Positions 1-15,644 of a DNA stretch of 64,000 nt are shown here, in pieces; the stretch's first letter is position 1; each line of letters starts with the position of its first letter. The position numbers and the translations under genes are program-made. The notes beneath the pieces were generated by a model. It had not been told where the DNA came from. It saw nothing but the letters and a program-made list of their open reading frames with translations, and searched no databases. This DNA is from an uncultured Cryomorphaceae bacterium (lineage in GTDB: Bacteria; Bacteroidota; Bacteroidia; Flavobacteriales_D; Cryomorphaceae): positions 19,010 through 83,009 of the forward strand of contig CAWILH010000002.1 of assembly GCA_963836915.1 (NCBI GenBank). The letters are read 5' to 3'.

Positions 1-114
1 ATTGACAGAACAAAGGATTTTATTAAACAGATTGACAACGTAGATAACGGACTGAAAAACCTTGAACGGCTGAGAAATTGGATAATCGAAAATGAAAACT
101 TGCTACAACAATGA
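1..114 (+). CDS. C-terminal fragment of a gene truncated by the window edge (last gene of the preceding cassette)
   Basis: Frame 1 is open from base 1 (IDRTKDFIKQ...NENLLQQ) to TGA at 112-114. The stop overlaps the inverse core of the first attC-like hairpin. Confidence 0.6.
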   Translation: MDRTKDFIKQIDNVDNGLKNLERLRNWIIENENLLQQ

Positions 115-235
115 ATAACACAAATTGCGGAATACCTTCCAAAAATGCCATTTTTGAGTACCTTTAAAATTACCTTTTTAACTGATAAATTCGAGTTTCC
201 AAGCCGCAACTTGCGTTATTCGGGACGTTGTGCCT
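102..235 (+). other. attC-like recombination hairpin 1
   Basis: Inverse core GCTACAAC (102-109), 3-nt spacer, arm GAATAACACAAATTGCGG pairing with CCGCAACTTGCGTTATTC, 5-nt spacer, core GTTGTGCCT (227-235). Confidence 0.75.
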
Positions 236-349
236 CATTGTGAAAAGCCGACCGCACAAACAGCACATTTGGTTTTTGCCGATACACAAGCCAACGCTTC
301 AAAAACCAAAAGAGCTGTTTTTTGCCAACGCTTGACGGAATAAAATTTG

Positions 350-357
350 TACCTTTG
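350..357 (+). promoter_or_regulatory. Bacteroidota -7 promoter element
   Basis: TACCTTTG matches TAnnTTTG, 14 nt upstream of the ATG at 372. Confidence 0.6.
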
Positions 358-371
358 CGTTTATTAAAAGT

Positions 372-743
372 ATGACAAGATTTTTATACATAGCATTACT
401 TACTCTAATTGGTTTTATTACGACACCAACAGACACCTATGCTTGTGGGTCAAAATCTGAAAACACAGAAAATACTATCAATAAACAGTCAGATTCCAAA
501 ATGGAAAAAAAAGATTGTTGCGATAAAGAAAAAGGACAATGTGGTAAACACGGAAAAGATTGTGACGGAAACTGCGGTAATCCCGCTTGTCATTGTCCTA
601 CTAATTGCACAAACTTTACAATCCCTTTTTTTGACGGACTTTCCCAAGTTAAAGTAGTCGTTAGAAAACCGAATTTTTACTATCAAGATACCTATTATTC
701 ATCAGGGTTTCTTTCCATTTGGCTACCGCCCAAAATAGGCTAA
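372..743 (+). CDS. Cys-rich exported hypothetical protein, first gene of the heavy-metal cluster
   Basis: N-terminal hydrophobic segment and a central Cys/His-rich tract (DCCDKEKGQCGKHGKDCDGNCGNPACHCPTNC). Confidence 0.7.
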   Translation: MTRFLYIALLTLIGFITTPTDTYACGSKSENTENTINKQSDSKMEKKDCCDKEKGQCGKHGKDCDGNCGNPACHCPTNCTNFTIPFFDGLSQVKVVVRKPNFYYQDTYYSSGFLSIWLPPKIG

Positions 744-834
744 TTTCTTGCCCTGACAGCCATAGGTCTGTCCATACGAGAGCATTACCTTGCTTTCGCA
801 ATCAAATATTTTCAAGGACTTAAAATTTAAAAAA

Positions 835-12942: not shown

Positions 12943-13326
12943 ATGAAAAGTATATTAATTATTACAGCAATGACAGTCATTTCAATTTTCGGAATTACTA
13001 ATTAAGCAAGTGCTCGAAAAGTTCAAATAGATGAAACTGTTACAGATGCAGAAGGTTGCGAATGGAAAATAAAAGGTTGGATAGATATTTCTGTAGAATG
13101 GGGTTGGCCTCCAGTTTCAGTAAATCATTACGACATTACAATGTCAGGGCCTTGTGGAAATCACCATTTTGTAGGAGCAGTTGGTCCAAACCCTAATCCA
13201 CCTGGTGGTGGTAATTCAATACAAGGTGAATTAACTGACATGGAAAAAAGGGAAAGCTTATCACTAACCACACCTTCATTTCTATTTATTATCAATAGCG
13301 TCCTAAATAAAATGAGAGAGGCTTAA
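12943..13326 (+). pseudogene. Small exported protein with an in-frame TAA at codon 21
   Basis: MKSILIITAMTVISIFGITN*ASARK... continues in frame into ORF 13141-13326. Confidence 0.6.
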
Positions 13327-14626
13327 GTTTTTGCCCAAAATAGCTACTTTGGGTTTGCACCAAAAACACACCTCTCCCATGAGTAATATTACGCTGTTTT
13401 CACAGATCATCCAAAAGATTGACCGTTCTATTTTCAAAAAGCTGGTAAGGCGGATGCAGACCGATAAGGGCTGCAAGGGATTTGACAGTTGGACGCATCT
13501 TGTTTCGATGCTTTTCTGTCATTTTGCCAAAAGCACATCGGTAAGGGACATCTCCAATGGCCTGCGGTCGGCCACGGGCAACCTCAACCATTTGGGCATT
13601 GTGAGGGCACCGTCCAAGTCCAGCATCAGCTATCAGAACAAGCGAAGGGACGCAGACCTGTTCAAAAACCTGTACTATGCCCTTTTGGACAGTTTAGGAC
13701 AGCAGGCAGCATTAAAGCGCGTCAAGCTCAGGATCAAGGTGCCGGTATATCTGCTGGACGCTACCGTGATAAGCCTGTGCCTGTCAATCTTCGATTGGGC
13801 AACTTTCCGGACCAAAAAAGGCGCTGTAAAGATGCATACCCTATTGGACTATGATGGTAAACTCCCTGTTTATGTGAATATCACCGAGGGAAGCGTTGGC
13901 GACAACAAAGGGGCGTACAACATTCCTTTGGAGAAAGGGTCGGTCATTGTGGCCGACAGGTATTACAACGATTTTCCCATGCTCAACGTTTGGGACAGCA
14001 ACGGGGCATTCTTCGTGATCAGGCATAAGAAAAACCTGGCCTATACCGTCATCAAAGACCGGCAACTGCCCGAAAAAATGGCCCAGCATGTGATGGTCGA
14101 CCAAGAGATCGGGCTGACCAACCCACAGTCTCAGGCCAAGTACCCGGGGCGGCTCAGGCGCGTGGCAGTGTGGGACGAAGAAAACCAACAGACCATCGAG
14201 TTGATCACAAACAATTTCAATTGGGCCGCCCAGACCATAGGGGACCTGTACAAGTCGCGGTGGGAGATCGAAGTGTTCTTCAGGGACATCAAACAGTTAC
14301 TGCATATCAAAACCTTCATAGGCACTTCTAAAAATGCAGTAATGATCCAGATATGGACTGCCCTGATCACCATTTTGCTGCTCAAAGTGATGAAGGCAAC
14401 AGCCAGGTACGGATGGCATATGTCCAATCTGGTCGCATTTATCCGGCTCAACATATTCGTCAAGATTGAGCTGCAAAAATGGCTGGACAAACCCTTTTTT
14501 GGTCGTGACGAACCGCCCCCCGACGTGCACCAGGGGGTCCTTTTTGAATTTTGACACTAAATCATCGCAGACATCCAATAAACAGGCAATGAATTATTTC
14601 ACTGAATATTGTTTAGGACAGCATTG
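13322..14626 (+). mobile_element. IS4-family element (left end approximate)
   Basis: Higher-GC block with transposase. The right end TTGTTTAGGACAGCATTG resembles Bacteroidota IS4 ends. No target duplication found. Confidence 0.75.
13379..14554 (+). CDS. IS4-family DDE transposase (DUF4372 N-terminus)
   Basis: LLDAT, VADRYY and YKSRWEIEVFFR (YREK) motifs. Start at ATG 13379. Confidence 0.95.
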   Translation: MSNITLFSQIIQKIDRSIFKKLVRRMQTDKGCKGFDSWTHLVSMLFCHFAKSTSVRDISNGLRSATGNLNHLGIVRAPSKSSISYQNKRRDADLFKNLYYALLDSLGQQAALKRVKLRIKVPVYLLDATVISLCLSIFDWATFRTKKGAVKMHTLLDYDGKLPVYVNITEGSVGDNKGAYNIPLEKGSVIVADRYYNDFPMLNVWDSNGAFFVIRHKKNLAYTVIKDRQLPEKMAQHVMVDQEIGLTNPQSQAKYPGRLRRVAVWDEENQQTIELITNNFNWAAQTIGDLYKSRWEIEVFFRDIKQLLHIKTFIGTSKNAVMIQIWTALITILLLKVMKATARYGWHMSNLVAFIRLNIFVKIELQKWLDKPFFGRDEPPPDVHQGVLFEF

Positions 14627-14658
14627 ATTTATTATTAACTATTTAGAAGAATCTTACG

Positions 14659-15042
14659 ATGAATAAAGTATTTTTTTTTATAATCATTCCTATGCTAGCG
14701 GTTTCTTCTTGCTTTGCCCAAACTCAACAATCATTGGACGGCATTTGGAAAATTACAGACATCGAATTTAAGCAGGACAATAAAGAACTTGACTTAAAGA
14801 ATATTTTGGCCAATTCGGTCGCAACTGATGGATTTAAGCCTGAACAAATTGAAATTAGAGCCAATCAGTTAATATTAAAATCTAAAAATGGTGAAATGAA
14901 TACATTAGATTTTAAAATAATCGATTCTAATGATAGTTCTTTTACATTGGCTACTGATAAAGGAGAAGCAAAATTTAATTTAATTGAATTAAGCAATGCC
15001 AATTTGACCATAGCAGGCGCAACTTATAGACTGAAAAAGTAG
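14659..15042 (+). CDS. Cassette gene, small exported lipocalin-like protein
   Basis: Signal peptide, LDGIWKI motif, beta-rich sequence. Confidence 0.6.
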   Translation: MNKVFFFIIIPMLAVSSCFAQTQQSLDGIWKITDIEFKQDNKELDLKNILANSVATDGFKPEQIEIRANQLILKSKNGEMNTLDFKIIDSNDSSFTLATDKGEAKFNLIELSNANLTIAGATYRLKK

Positions 15043-15063
15043 ATGATTTTTGAGTTGACTAAC

Positions 15064-15071
15064 TCCTGCTA
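15064..15071 (+). other. Inverse core of attC-like site 5, interrupted by a group II intron
   Basis: TCCTGCTA(A) is complementary to (T)TAGCAGGA at 12764-12772. Confidence 0.7.
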
Positions 15072-15644
15072 ATCGAGTAGACGGCTCCGCCCCTAACTAG
15101 GGACGGAGTGCGCCTCTCACACCACTGTACCCTTCGACAAGCTCAGGACAGGCCAAGCGGTTCTCGTATACAGCGGTTCGTTAAGTTGCGGAGCAATATT
15201 GTTGTAGAGTCCTGCGGCTGATAAGTACCCTCGCTTCACAAGCCTTTCCAATGTTATGGTAGTGATTAGAATTGGGCTTTACTCATATCATTATATTGAA
15301 AGGTAGGAATTCGTGAGACCGCTGGCGCTAAGTTGGGCTACTGCCCAGCCTCCCATTACTCATAAAACAATTAGTTTTTAAAGGTATTCGTGAGATCGCT
15401 TCGCTAAGTTCGCGTGCGGCTCCATGCATACGCTTGGTCGGGTTTAATCCCTAGACGTATCAGGTTTTTCCGTTTACGTTCTCCTACCACCAGCTGGCTC
15501 AATCGCTAAAATAGTCCACCGGACTATTTCTTAACGCTCTGCCCTCCAATCATGCCATATGCAGTAGCGCAGACGGTTGCGCAACCATCCTTCTACCTTT
15601 TGTAATTTGGCATAGATATTTGCCATACGGTAGTGATTTACCCA
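15072..15644 (-). mobile_element. 5'-truncated group II intron (class C-like): RT/maturase C-terminus, domains V and VI
   Basis: Minus strand encodes WVNHYRMANIYAKL..GWLRNRLRYCIWHDW..RKRKNLIRLGIKPDQAYAWSRTR..MGGWAVAQ..SPILITTITL. Domain V reads GAACCGCTGTATACG...GTGGTGTGAGAGG, and the intron ends CTACTCGAT. Confidence 0.88.

What the first reader, a model, noticed from the sequence alone, without database searches (positions are those of the whole stretch)
102..15073. Integron-like cassette array in a Bacteroidota genome with no classical IntI
Seen: five attC-like boundaries (102-235; 6839/8210; 9526-9659; 10218/12772; 15064), all genes on the + strand. Each segment's 5' core is the reverse complement of its own 3' inverse core: GTTGTGCCT(227)/AGGCACAAC(6839), GTTAGGCAC(8202)/GTGCCTAAC(9526), GTTGTGTGGC(9650)/GCCACACAA-C(10218, after removing the insert), and TTAGCAGGA(12764)/TCCTGCTAA(15064). 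Intact sites are ~125-135 bp hairpins with asymmetric spacers (3 vs 5, 5 vs 7, 3 vs 6 nt). Established: this self-complementarity is the signature of cassettes excised and integrated as circles at G|TT. Inference: this is a functional or once-functional cassette system with its own attC dialect, served by a non-IntI recombinase.
Basis: partly seen in the sequence, partly recalled or inferred. Interest (0 to 1): 0.92.

Follow-up and report, generated by a model that had tools for sequence, protein, structure and literature searches.

The report
Bacteroidota cassette array, non-IntI integron
The first 15 kb of the window is the decaying far end of a real gene-cassette array of integron type in a Flavobacteriales genome. 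In related genomes the same recombination sites always sit beside a Xer-like recombinase that lacks the hallmark insertion of integron integrases, a combination I found in no paper.

Summary
A covariance model built from these sites hits the 64-kb window only at 101-234, 8073-8209, 9526-9657 and 12639-12770, all on the + strand. The copper-resistance segment (228-6851) recurs in eight other genomes. Its boundaries are always the same G|TT and GGCACAAC, and its neighbours always differ.

Across 68 cassettes in related loci, 68% show perfect start/inverse-core complementarity, against 2.5% with shuffled partners.

Corrections:
- 12639-12770 is a complete site, not the other half of 10218.
- 10218 is an inverse core cut after ..AA by an IS91-plus-recombinase block.
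- 15064 is an inverse core cut after ..AA by an antisense group II intron remnant.
- An antisense IS110 splits the site 6839/8210.
- The IS genes lie on the - strand.

The window holds no array integrase, but the array runs off its left end. In five chromosomal genome loci, one Chryseobacterium plasmid and six metagenome loci, the same attC family starts beside one recombinase family. It is closest to XerA and VchIntIA, lacks the IntI-specific ~35-residue insertion, and has an extra N-terminal domain. A conserved attI-like site (TGCGTATATTTGAGAG|TT) lies next to it.

Verdict: a real integron-type system with a distinct integrase and attC architecture.

The parts
1..113 (+). 3' end of an ORF of an upstream cassette; the array continues beyond the window's left end
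   Evidence: The reading frame is open from base 1 and attC A follows directly.
102..235 (+). attC site A, intact: inverse core CTACAAC 103-109, core GTTGTGC 227-233, crossover G227|T228
   Evidence: CM R1 scores 79.9 bits, E 2.8e-15. The bottom strand folds at -39.7 kcal/mol against -30.2 for the top strand. Stem mismatches are A.C on the top strand, which become G.T on the bottom strand.
228..6851 (+). Cassette 1, a copper-resistance-like operon with its own 5' leader. It encodes a Cys-rich protein (372-743), HMA/DUF3347 (790-1698), DUF3347 (1720-2346), Haem_bd (2347-2850), a methyltransferase (3801-4451) and a multicopper oxidase (4414-6721, frameshifted).
   Evidence: Pfam assignments. Blastn homology in 8 genomes starts at 223-227 in seven of them and ends at 6848-6851 in five. 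The oxidase is intact, 752-768 aa, in L001 and L004.
2803..3798 (+). IS1595-family insertion inside cassette 1
   Evidence: Inverted repeats at 2803-2831 / 3770-3798. DDE_Tnp_IS1595 domain. The element is absent from L001, L002, L004, L005 and the other relatives.
6839..6851 (+). 5' part of attC B: inverse core AGGCACAAC plus spacer ATTG
   Evidence: It is complementary to the cassette start at 227-235. Homologues continue straight into L''.
6852..8088 (-). IS110-family element inserted antisense at the inverse-core/L'' border of attC B
   Evidence: NF033542 scores 218 bits against a cut-off of 140. Related IS110 copies are inserted antisense near the same border of attC sites, a few nt further into L'', in L057, L103 and L142.
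8089..8209 (+). 3' part of attC B (chimeric), core GTTAGGC 8202-8208, crossover G8202|T8203
   Evidence: CM scores 40.5 bits. It is 86% identical to D over 95 nt. Its 3' arm matches L007 and L010 sites.
8203..9650 (+). Cassette 2: ORFs 8219-8800 (weak HEPN match) and 8802-9521, with attC C (9526-9659; inverse core GTGCCTAAC, core GTTGTGT at 9650)
   Evidence: CM scores 79.1 bits. A microbialite-metagenome contig covers exactly 8202-9644 and has unlike flanks.
9651..10226 (+). Cassette 3: ORF 9653-10210 and a truncated inverse core GCCACACAA at 10218-10226; the rest of its attC is lost
   Evidence: Sequence. It is complementary to the start GTTGTGTGGC at 9650. No CM hit follows.
10227..12560 (-). 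IS91-family element carrying its own Xer/IntI-like tyrosine recombinase; both genes are frameshifted. The right boundary is approximate.
   Evidence: NF033538 scores 308 bits for the transposase. The recombinase fragments score 145 + 20 bits on TIGR02249, below its cut-off. GC is 55%. The same gene pair occurs in L105.
12639..12770 (+). attC D, complete: inverse core GTGCAAC 12641-12647, core GTTAGCA 12763-12769. It is probably preceded by a short remnant of another Cu-type cassette.
   Evidence: CM scores 68 bits. Folding energy is -51.2 (bottom strand) and -48.5 (top strand). The motif AACGCTGACT upstream is shared with the 3' UTR of cassette 1.
12764..15072 (+). Cassette 4: ORF 14659-15042, an IS4 insertion at 13291-14628, and a truncated inverse core TCCTGCTAA at 15064-15072
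   Evidence: IS4 inverted repeats, and 11/12 complementarity between 12764-12775 and 15061-15072. NF033592 scores 260 bits.
15073..15500 (-). Remnant of the 3' end of a group II intron inserted antisense after ..AA of the inverse core; its upstream part and the rest of the attC are deleted
   Evidence: The same end sequence abuts other cassette ends in L134, L020 and L142. The maturase C-terminus has homologues annotated as group II intron RT with PF08388. Rfam gives no hit.

Best explanation
Window 1-15072 is the distal, decaying part of a chromosomal cassette array of integron type in a Flavobacteriales genome. It is low in GC and therefore looks horizontally acquired.

Each cassette is a unit that can be cut out and inserted by a tyrosine recombinase. 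The crossover lies between G and TT of the core. That explains why each cassette's first bases are complementary to the inverse core of its own attC.

The attC sites are ~120-nt imperfect palindromes that most likely act as folded hairpins or cruciforms. This is inferred from strict Watson-Crick covariation. In the three intact window sites the bottom strand pairs better than the top strand.

The array does not appear to belong to the classical IntI integrons. It belongs to a Bacteroidota-wide sister system. Its integrase is Xer/IntI-like but lacks the IntI-specific I2 insertion and carries an extra N-terminal beta-beta-alpha-beta-beta-alpha domain. That domain is possibly HARP-like, meaning a structure-specific DNA binder. 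The integrase sits at the 5' edge of the arrays next to a conserved attI-like site, TGCGTATATTTGAGAG|TT.

In this genome that edge lies left of the window. Within the window, elements that home to attC sites have eroded the array: an antisense IS110, an antisense group II intron and an IS91-plus-recombinase block. An IS1595, an IS4 and several frameshifts add to the decay.

Shown: the sites, the cassette boundaries, the family-wide permutation signature, and the association between recombinase and array.
Inferred: that this recombinase catalyses the reaction, that single-stranded folding is used, and the role of the N-terminal domain.
For: Composition: GC is 36% at 1-10.5 kb against 45-55% elsewhere.

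Sites: the CM hits are confined to the four sites.

Cassette mobility: comparative boundaries.

Structure: on 150 sites, 13 of 13 stem pairs have compensatory changes, 93.8% of cells are paired, and almost no G-U occurs. Paired cells fall to 25-43% when the partners are slid.

Permutation signature: 46 of 68 cassettes have a perfect 6-nt start/inverse-core match. The rate is 2.5% for shuffled partners and 2.1% for the same site's own core.

Spread: 235 sites in 120 metagenome loci, one orientation per locus in nearly all.

Recombinase at the array edge: L019, L048, L051, L081, L103 and L130; Arachidicoccus, Flavobacterium faecale, Pedobacter jejuensis, a Saprospiraceae MAG and a Flavobacterium sp.; and a Chryseobacterium plasmid with 5 sites.

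Not a classical IntI: TIGR02249 scores 175-212 against a cut-off of 265, matched in two stretches. VchIntIA residues ~214-248 have no counterpart, while XerA aligns end to end. Foldseek's top hits are 2a3v and XerA.

attI: motif found in A5 and in L007, L008, L031, L048, L081 and L130.

attC-homing elements: antisense intron and IS110 insertions as in classical attC sites (literature PMC3001079).
Against: - No integrase of this family, and no attI, lies in the window. The link to this genome therefore rests on relatives.
- No recombination product (circle or reordered array) was observed. Only assembled contigs were available.
- IntegronFinder's own attC model could not be run, so I cannot say whether these sites would already be called CALINs.
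- The Raineya array has an attI-like site but no integrase within 10 kb.
- The HARP-like assignment is sub-threshold: Pfam E 0.0018, Foldseek probability 0.51.
- Stem mismatch patterns across the whole family do not clearly favour one strand.
Confidence: 0.8

Rival explanations
1. It is an ordinary integron or CALIN. A canonical IntI with the I2 insertion sits just upstream of the window or elsewhere in the genome and recombines these sites. Under this view the Xer-like recombinase seen in relatives is not the catalyst.
For: The sites have the R''/L''/L'/R' layout, the GTT/AAC boxes and the G|TT crossover of classical attC. The array runs off the window. The same cassette occurs in an Ignavibacteriales MAG (L009), and complete integrons are reported from Ignavibacteriae (PMC9024848).
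Against: No protein passing the integron-integrase model was found in about 140 loci holding this attC family. Every recombinase at an array edge lacks the insertion. Six of six genomic or plasmid loci chosen through that recombinase have arrays directly downstream.
Confidence: 0.1
2. The tyrosine recombinase inside the window (11633-12480, - strand), paired with the IS91 transposase, is the array's recombinase. It lies antisense to the cassettes, directly before attC D and cassette 4, as an intI does.
For: Its best NCBIfam match is the integron-integrase model (145 bits on the C-terminal fragment). It is 39% identical to the array-edge family over the catalytic domain. L105 has the same gene pair near an attC.
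Against: It is frameshifted and is followed by a frameshifted IS91 transposase. The block has 55% GC against 36% for the cassettes. It lacks the N-terminal domain and has no attI motif beside it. None of the other arrays has it at its edge. D is preceded by a cassette remnant, not by an attI.
Confidence: 0.05
3. The hairpins are REP-, MITE- or terminator-like intergenic repeats, and the apparent cassettes are ordinary operons that such repeats happen to separate.
For: They are intergenic palindromes lying downstream of genes. Related repeats are very abundant in some metagenomes.
Against: The same gene unit occurs with the same ends and different neighbours in eight genomes. The start/inverse-core permutation signature is seen in 68% of cases against 2.5%. 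Orientation is fixed. The arrays always start at a recombinase and attI.
Confidence: 0.02

Closest known systems
[quoted passage not shown]
   Same: Co-oriented cassettes are each followed by an imperfect palindrome with inverse core ..AAC and core GTT.. . The crossover is at G|TT, which makes cassettes circularly permuted units. The cargo is accessory genes: metal resistance, restriction-modification systems and small unknown ORFs. An attI site lies next to the integrase. The sites are targeted by IS110-family elements and antisense group II introns.
   Different: The integrase lacks the IntI-specific ~35-residue I2 segment and fails TIGR02249. It has an extra N-terminal domain and is mostly co-oriented with the cassettes. 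The attC sites are nearly uniform in length (half of them exactly 135 nt in model register). They have a 22-bp stem with conserved transition mismatches instead of bulged extrahelical bases. Their loop consists of four ~18-nt direct repeats. Some cassettes are large operons of 6 kb with their own leader or promoter.
Archaeal/bacterial XerA-type recombinases and archaeal integrons (Ghaly et al. 2022, PMC9668308)
   Same: The catalytic and core-binding domains align end to end with XerA (4a8e, 5hxy). NCBI's model NF040815, 'site-specific tyrosine recombinase/integron integrase', is the best or second-best match.
   Different: XerA resolves chromosome dimers at dif. The recombinase here sits at cassette arrays and has an added N-terminal domain. 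The library text I read does not say how archaeal IntI compares in the I2 region.
IS1111-attC insertion sequences and group IIC-attC introns of classical integrons
   Same: The window's IS110 and the intron are inserted at fixed positions of the attC, antisense to the cassettes. The intron separates the gene from its attC, as S.ma.I2 does (PMC3001079).
   Different: They belong to lineages found in Bacteroidota attC sites. The intron's RNA class could not be assigned, as Rfam gives no match.
Single-stranded hairpin substrates of XerCD (CTX-phi attP), from my own knowledge
   Same: This shows that a Xer-type enzyme without the I2 helix can recombine a folded single-stranded hairpin.
   Different: CTX-phi integrates one phage genome at dif. 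It forms no cassette arrays, has no attI and encodes no dedicated recombinase.

Membership tests
Integron (integrase-defined, as in IntegronFinder / TIGR02249) | Tyrosine recombinase with the IntI-specific additional domain (I2 alpha-helix region) that passes the integron-integrase model | tested here: not met
   Array-edge recombinases score 122-212 bits against a cut-off of 265, mostly in two stretches. VchIntIA residues ~214-248 are unmatched. No integrase of either kind lies at the array in the window, and the array's 5' end is outside it.
Integron (integrase-defined, as in IntegronFinder / TIGR02249) | attI site adjacent to the integrase where the first cassette is inserted | tested here: met
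   The conserved motif TGCG(T/G/C)ATAT..(A/T)(A/G)G|TT lies between the recombinase and the first cassette in 10 related loci. This was tested in relatives only; the window has none.
attC recombination site | Inverse core RYYYAAC and core GTTRRRY flanking paired L''/L' boxes | tested here: met
   AAC/GTT are invariant in more than 135 of 137 sites. Thirteen of 13 stem pairs covary and 93.8% of cells are paired. Window sites A, C and D qualify.
attC recombination site | Crossover between G and TT of the core, so that a cassette's start is complementary to its own inverse core | tested here: met
   Homologous cassettes diverge exactly at G|TT. Forty-six of 68 cassettes are 6/6 complementary against 2.5% of controls. 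All four window pairs fit.
attC recombination site | Extrahelical (bulged) bases on the bottom strand and a variable terminal structure of variable length | tested here: not met
   Stems are ungapped with positional transition mismatches. The 3' spacer is 4 nt longer than the 5' spacer. The loop has a near-fixed length and an 18-19-nt periodicity. Only site C has a 1-nt bulge.
attC recombination site | Detection by IntegronFinder's attC covariance model | not testable with these tools
   That model is not in Rfam. Rfam gives no hits in the window.
attC recombination site | Recombination as a folded single (bottom) strand | tested here: inconclusive
   In window sites A, C and D the bottom strand is more stable, and the mismatches are G.T only on the bottom strand. 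Across the family both kinds occur. No experiment was possible.
IS110 family (attC-targeting, like IS1111-attC) | DEDD transposase of IS110 type, with site- and orientation-specific insertion in attC | tested here: met
   NF033542 scores 218 bits against a cut-off of 140. The insertion lies at the inverse-core/L'' border, antisense. Related copies sit near the same border, a few nt further into L'', in L057, L103 and L142.
Group IIC-attC intron | Group II intron with RT/maturase inserted in the bottom strand of attC, antisense to the cassette | tested here: met
   The maturase C-terminus has homologues with PF08388. The full copy in L142 has ltrA, a GTGTG 5' end, and an insertion at ..GGTAA| of the inverse core. 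The behaviour matches PMC3001079.
Group IIC-attC intron | Class IIC ribozyme structure / monophyly with IIC-attC IEPs | tested here: inconclusive
   No Rfam match even at E 10. No phylogeny was made.
IS91 family | Y2 (HUH) rolling-circle transposase | tested here: met
   NF033538 scores 308 bits against a cut-off of 125. Y2_Tnp and Zn_Tnp_IS91 domains are present. The gene is frameshifted.

The most novel reading that the evidence does not exclude
Bacteroidota carry a second, so far undescribed lineage of integrons, on chromosomes and at least one plasmid. Its integrase never acquired, or has lost, the I2 helix that is held to be the key innovation for single-stranded attC recombination. Instead it uses an N-terminal HARP-like structure-specific DNA-binding domain. 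Its partner sites are long, uniform attC sites with four 18-nt repeats in the loop. The window holds the decayed tail of one such array.
Probability: 0.5. Interest if true: 0.9.

Novelty: new variant of a known kind. Interest (0 to 1): 0.85.

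Why it matters
Integron integrases are thought to have moved from double-stranded to single-stranded DNA recombination by acquiring the I2 alpha-helix (abstract of PMC7790495). Current detection tools define integrons by that insertion. Surveys of complete genomes accordingly report integrons as nearly absent from Bacteroidetes (PMC9024848).

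Here a cassette system shows every comparative hallmark of integron recombination. Yet in every informative relative it is tied to a large recombinase family without that insertion. The family has more than 7,900 relatives at E<1e-20, in Pedobacter, Flavobacterium, Chitinophagales, Saprospiraceae and on a Chryseobacterium plasmid.

If this holds, three things follow:
- Integron-type gene capture in a major environmental and host-associated phylum is under-counted.
- The evolutionary question 'is I2 needed for attC recombination?' becomes directly testable with a natural enzyme.
- A new set of cassette cargo (metal resistance, restriction-modification and defence genes) becomes findable with a simple covariance model plus the attI motif.

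Tried and rejected
- Rfam gave nothing: no hit on the whole window at gathering thresholds, and nothing relevant at E 10 on 14900-16000.
- Exact-protein look-ups for the IS110 transposase and the first ORF of cassette 2 found no record.
The sequence left of the window, where the integrase should be, could not be read.
I rejected this because D has its own inverse core and a normal 4-nt spacer.
- I considered that 10227-10500 is also an intron 3' end. It has no similarity to the intron, no maturase frame and a weak fold.
- The public runs holding this DNA exist only as assembled contigs, so rare circles cannot be seen. One joint, 9645->10223, remains unexplained.
- Searches for the N-terminal domain were not conclusive. 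A PDB profile search gave only chance hits. Pfam HARP and DUF5710 matches are sub-threshold. Foldseek's top hit is the SMARCAL1 HARP domain, but at E 0.28.
- Eight literature searches found no description of this system. That does not prove there is none.

Full report
WHAT IS IN THE WINDOW

The first ~10.5 kb has 35-41% GC, against 45-55% for most of the rest of the window. The hemB gene places the genome, a 4.29-Mb contig, among Flavobacteriales. Its nearest named relatives are Cryomorphaceae and Crocinitomicaceae MAGs at no more than 77% identity. The 'Bacteroidota' label therefore holds.

Pfam and NCBIfam annotation gives this order along the + strand:
- the tail of an upstream ORF;
- site A;
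- a copper-resistance-like operon: a Cys-rich protein, two DUF3347/HMA proteins, a Haem_bd protein, a methyltransferase and a frameshifted multicopper oxidase, interrupted by an IS1595 at 2803-3798;
- an IS110 on the - strand;
- site B;
- two ORFs of unknown function;
- site C;
- one ORF;
- an IS91 transposase plus a tyrosine recombinase, both on the - strand and both frameshifted;
- site D;
- a segment holding an IS4 (13291-14628) and a small ORF;
- 860 bp without an ORF;
- core genes (GH15, HerA).

ARE THE SITES REAL?

Sites A, C and D fold into long hairpins. The bottom strand is the more stable one in all three.

I aligned twelve sites from the window and from related loci. RNAalifold found 13 stem pairs, 12 of them with compensatory changes. 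A covariance model built from this alignment (R1) hits the 64-kb window at only four places, all on the + strand:

| Site | Coordinates | Bits |
|---|---|---|
| A | 101-234 | 79.9 |
| C | 9526-9657 | 79.1 |
| D | 12639-12770 | 68 |
| B (3' part) | 8073-8209 | 40.5 |

A cruder ungapped scan gave 7 strand-hits against a mean of 0.5 in shuffles. It picked up A and D plus one small non-attC hairpin.

On 150 further sites from metagenomes, all 13 stem pairs covary and 93.8% of cells are paired. G-U pairs are almost absent. Sliding the partners drops pairing to 25-43%. The lack of G-U points to a DNA structure rather than an RNA structure.

ARE THE SEGMENTS CASSETTES?

A search for the first protein of the copper operon found nine genomic loci. 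In seven of eight, nucleotide homology to the window starts at 223-227. In five it ends at 6848-6851.

At the left junction five loci have different hairpin sites that end ...CG|TTGTGCCTCATTG. At the right junction the cassette continues GGCACAAC-AATG-TATAAACGCAATAGCGGG...CCGCTACTGCGTTTATAC-TAGACC-G. Then L009, L010 and L012 diverge, at or within two bases of the TT.

L001 carries a diverged copy whose start (TTGGCAGC) and inverse core (GCTGCCAAC) have changed together.

A microbialite-metagenome contig covers exactly 8202-9644, which is cassette 2, with unlike sequence on both sides.

I then took all pairs of consecutive model hits in the related loci. In 46 of 68 cassettes, the six bases after G|TT are perfectly complementary to the six bases before the AAC of the cassette's own site. 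The rate is 2.5% for shuffled partners and 2.1% for the two ends of one site. This is the permutation signature expected if cassettes are excised and inserted as circles at G|TT.

CORRECTIONS TO THE ANATOMY

Site 6839/8210 is indeed split. Homologues run straight from GGCACAAC-A(A/T)TG into L'', so an IS110 element occupies 6852-8088, antisense to the cassettes. B's 5' 95 nt are 86% identical to D, but its 3' arm resembles sites in L007 and L010. Its arms therefore no longer pair. B is chimeric and probably dead.

Site D is not the other half of 10218. It has its own inverse core (GTGCAAC), the usual 4-nt spacer, a 16-bp stem and the core GTTAGCA. It is probably preceded by a short remnant resembling the 3' UTR of the copper cassette.

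The inverse core at 10218 (GCCACACAA) is cut before its final C by the IS91-plus-recombinase block. The rest of that attC, and probably most of a further cassette, are gone.

The inverse core at 15064 (TCCTGCTAA) is cut at the same position by a different element. The sequence TCGAGTAGACGGCTCCGC...GGAGTGCGCCTCTCACACCAC recurs next to other cassette ends in L134, L020 and L142. The - strand encodes the C-terminus of a protein whose homologues are annotated as group II intron reverse transcriptase/maturase with PF08388. The full copy on the Chryseobacterium plasmid has ltrA, a GTGTG 5' end, and sits between ..GGTAA and the rest of the attC.

Antisense insertion into the bottom strand of attC, separating the gene from its site, is what is described for group IIC-attC introns (PMC3001079). 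IS110 copies in L057, L103 and L142 are likewise antisense near the inverse-core/L'' border, a few nt further into L'' than in the window. So the sites attract the same two kinds of homing element as classical attC sites.

WHICH RECOMBINASE?

The window has one tyrosine recombinase (11633-12480, - strand). Three things tie it to the IS91 element rather than to the array:
- it is frameshifted and lies in a 55% GC block;
- it is followed by a frameshifted IS91 transposase;
- it lacks an N-terminal extension and has no junction motif beside it.

L105 has the same gene pair.

The cassettes are on the + strand and the array runs off base 1, so any integrase should lie outside the window. I could not retrieve that sequence.

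I therefore asked what sits at the start of arrays of this attC family elsewhere. A scan of metagenome contigs with a conserved 3' motif of the sites gave 120 loci. Model R1 finds 235 sites in them, in arrays of up to 9, with one orientation per locus in nearly all. Half of the sites in the stored alignments are exactly 135 nt in model register.

A phmmer search with the window's recombinase found relatives in eight loci. In six of them the gene lies directly 5' of the first cassette:
- divergent from the cassettes in three (L019, L051, L081);
- co-oriented with the cassettes in three (L048, L103, L130).

Their best NCBIfam matches are NF040815 (XerA/'integron integrase', 184-226 bits for five of the six) and TIGR02249 (175-212 bits against a cut-off of 265). 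The truncated L051 copy scores lower on both. TIGR02249 is matched in two stretches that skip the middle of the catalytic domain.

Alignment to VchIntIA (2a3v) leaves its residues ~214-248 unmatched, whereas XerA aligns in one piece. An AlphaFold model (pLDDT 79) has 2a3v and XerA as its closest solved structures.

The family is very large: more than 7,900 proteins at E<1e-20, named from Pedobacter, Chitinophagales, Arachidicoccus, Flavobacterium, Saprospiraceae and Thermoflexibacter.

I picked six members with long contigs. One contig ends right after the gene. The other five all have attC sites of this family directly downstream and co-oriented:
- Arachidicoccus ginsenosidimutans;
- Flavobacterium faecale, with five sites;
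- Pedobacter jejuensis;
- a Saprospiraceae MAG;
- a Flavobacterium sp.

A 44%-identical member on a 66-kb Chryseobacterium plasmid is followed by five sites, an antisense IS110 and an antisense group II intron.

Between the recombinase and the first cassette lies a conserved motif, TGCGTATATTTGAGAG|TT followed by RRRY-like bases. The same motif forms the left junction of the copper cassette in L008. It also starts the integrase-less array of Raineya orbicola.

No protein passing the integron-integrase model was seen in any locus.

THE ATTC 'DIALECT'

Compared with classical attC sites, these differ in four ways:
- Length is nearly fixed.
- The stem is ~22 bp and ungapped.
- The 3' spacer is 4 nt longer than the 5' spacer.
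- Conserved positions carry transition mismatches (T.G near the base, A.C in the middle) rather than bulged bases.

In window sites A, C and D all mismatches are A.C on the top strand, which become G.T on the bottom strand.

The loop consists of four imperfect ~18-nt direct repeats. GTGC recurs at positions 36, 54, 73 and 91, and the autocorrelation peaks at lags 18-19. The window's own sites show this only weakly.

THE N-TERMINAL DOMAIN

Residues 1-55 of the recombinase fold as beta-beta-alpha-beta-beta-alpha (pLDDT ~85 in the full-length model, ~80 when modelled alone), with an invariant W-S ... W motif. L130 has three copies.

Three weak clues point the same way:
- Pfam gives sub-threshold HARP (E 0.0018) and DUF5710 matches.
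- Foldseek's top hit among 350,000 chains is the SMARCAL1 HARP substrate-recognition domain, but at E 0.28 and probability 0.51.
- A PDB sequence profile search found nothing.

The clues agree but remain weak. If the domain is HARP-like, a structure-specific DNA binder could stand in for the missing I2 helix. This step is inference only.

COMPARISON WITH WHAT IS KNOWN, AND NOVELTY

The system works like an integron in every respect I could test comparatively. It fails the integrase-based definition of the family and departs from two attC features: extrahelical bases and a variable terminal structure.

The literature I could search says the following:
- Integrons are rare in Bacteroidetes complete genomes (PMC9024848).
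- Bacteroidota is listed among phyla with integrons (PMC8618304, PMC9668308).

Eight searches found no description of this recombinase/attC/attI combination. NCBI's pipeline already names some members 'site-specific tyrosine recombinase/integron integrase'. That is a name from a profile, not a characterisation.

I therefore rate the finding a new variant of a known kind. There is a real chance that it has been described somewhere I could not search.

STATE OF THE ARRAY IN THIS GENOME

Three of the four sites are intact. Five mobile elements and at least three frameshifts have accumulated. The last attC, and the junction with the chromosome, were lost inside the intron remnant. This is the eroding distal end of an array; whether the proximal part is active is unknown.

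Noticed in passing
window 228-345 (hairpin 258-278 / 300-320); also L004 15589-15705, L101 ~7625, L133 ~11230-11330: A conserved ~120-nt 5' leader (..GCACATTTGGTTTTTG...CAAAAACCAAAAGAGC..TTGCCAACGC) heads unrelated cassettes. It is extremely over-represented in microbialite metagenome unitigs, with depth up to ~390. TACCTTTG at 350-357 fits the Bacteroidota -7 promoter box (my own knowledge). It may be a portable cassette promoter or regulatory module.
   Followed up: partly
window 8780-8804 versus 8197-8221: The junction between the two ORFs of cassette 2 (AAGACGTTAGGCGCCATTTAAAATG) repeats the start of the cassette (AAAACGTTAGGCACCATATAGAATG; 21 of 25). It may be a fused cassette boundary that lost its attC.
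   Followed up: no
window 4414-6721; 10501-11726; 11633-12480: There are three frameshifted genes within 12 kb: the multicopper oxidase (one gap relative to the intact 768-aa L004 copy), the IS91 transposase and its recombinase. This is either real decay or homopolymer errors in the assembly.
   Followed up: partly
L011 (Arenibacter sp. P308M17) 9928-17638: The copper operon is present at 77-80% identity but without the cassette ends or any attC. Homology covers only window 297-1698 and 4439-6719. It may be a non-cassette, source-like context, which bears on how cassettes are born.
   Followed up: no
L007 (Raineya orbicola) 8709-16181: A short array of 3-4 cassettes (cNMP-binding, SMR, the copper operon and one more) lies between core genes. 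It begins with an attI-like motif, but no recombinase lies within 10 kb.
   Followed up: partly
window 9645 -> 10223 (read laying joint): Contigs in three microbialite runs join the 3' arm of a site like C directly to ACAATAACTAAG..., the start of the IS91-side sequence, skipping 577 nt. Only 27 nt lie on the short side. This is unexplained.
   Followed up: no
L130 177-1928: One array-edge recombinase carries three tandem copies of the N-terminal W-S...W domain, giving a 584-aa protein.
   Followed up: partly
L133 11304-17267; L140 11488-14947; L134 15405-18072: First or early cassettes in isolate genomes are whole restriction-modification systems (methyltransferases plus AlwI-type or HNH nucleases) of 3.5-6 kb. 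This suggests the arrays store defence genes.
   Followed up: no
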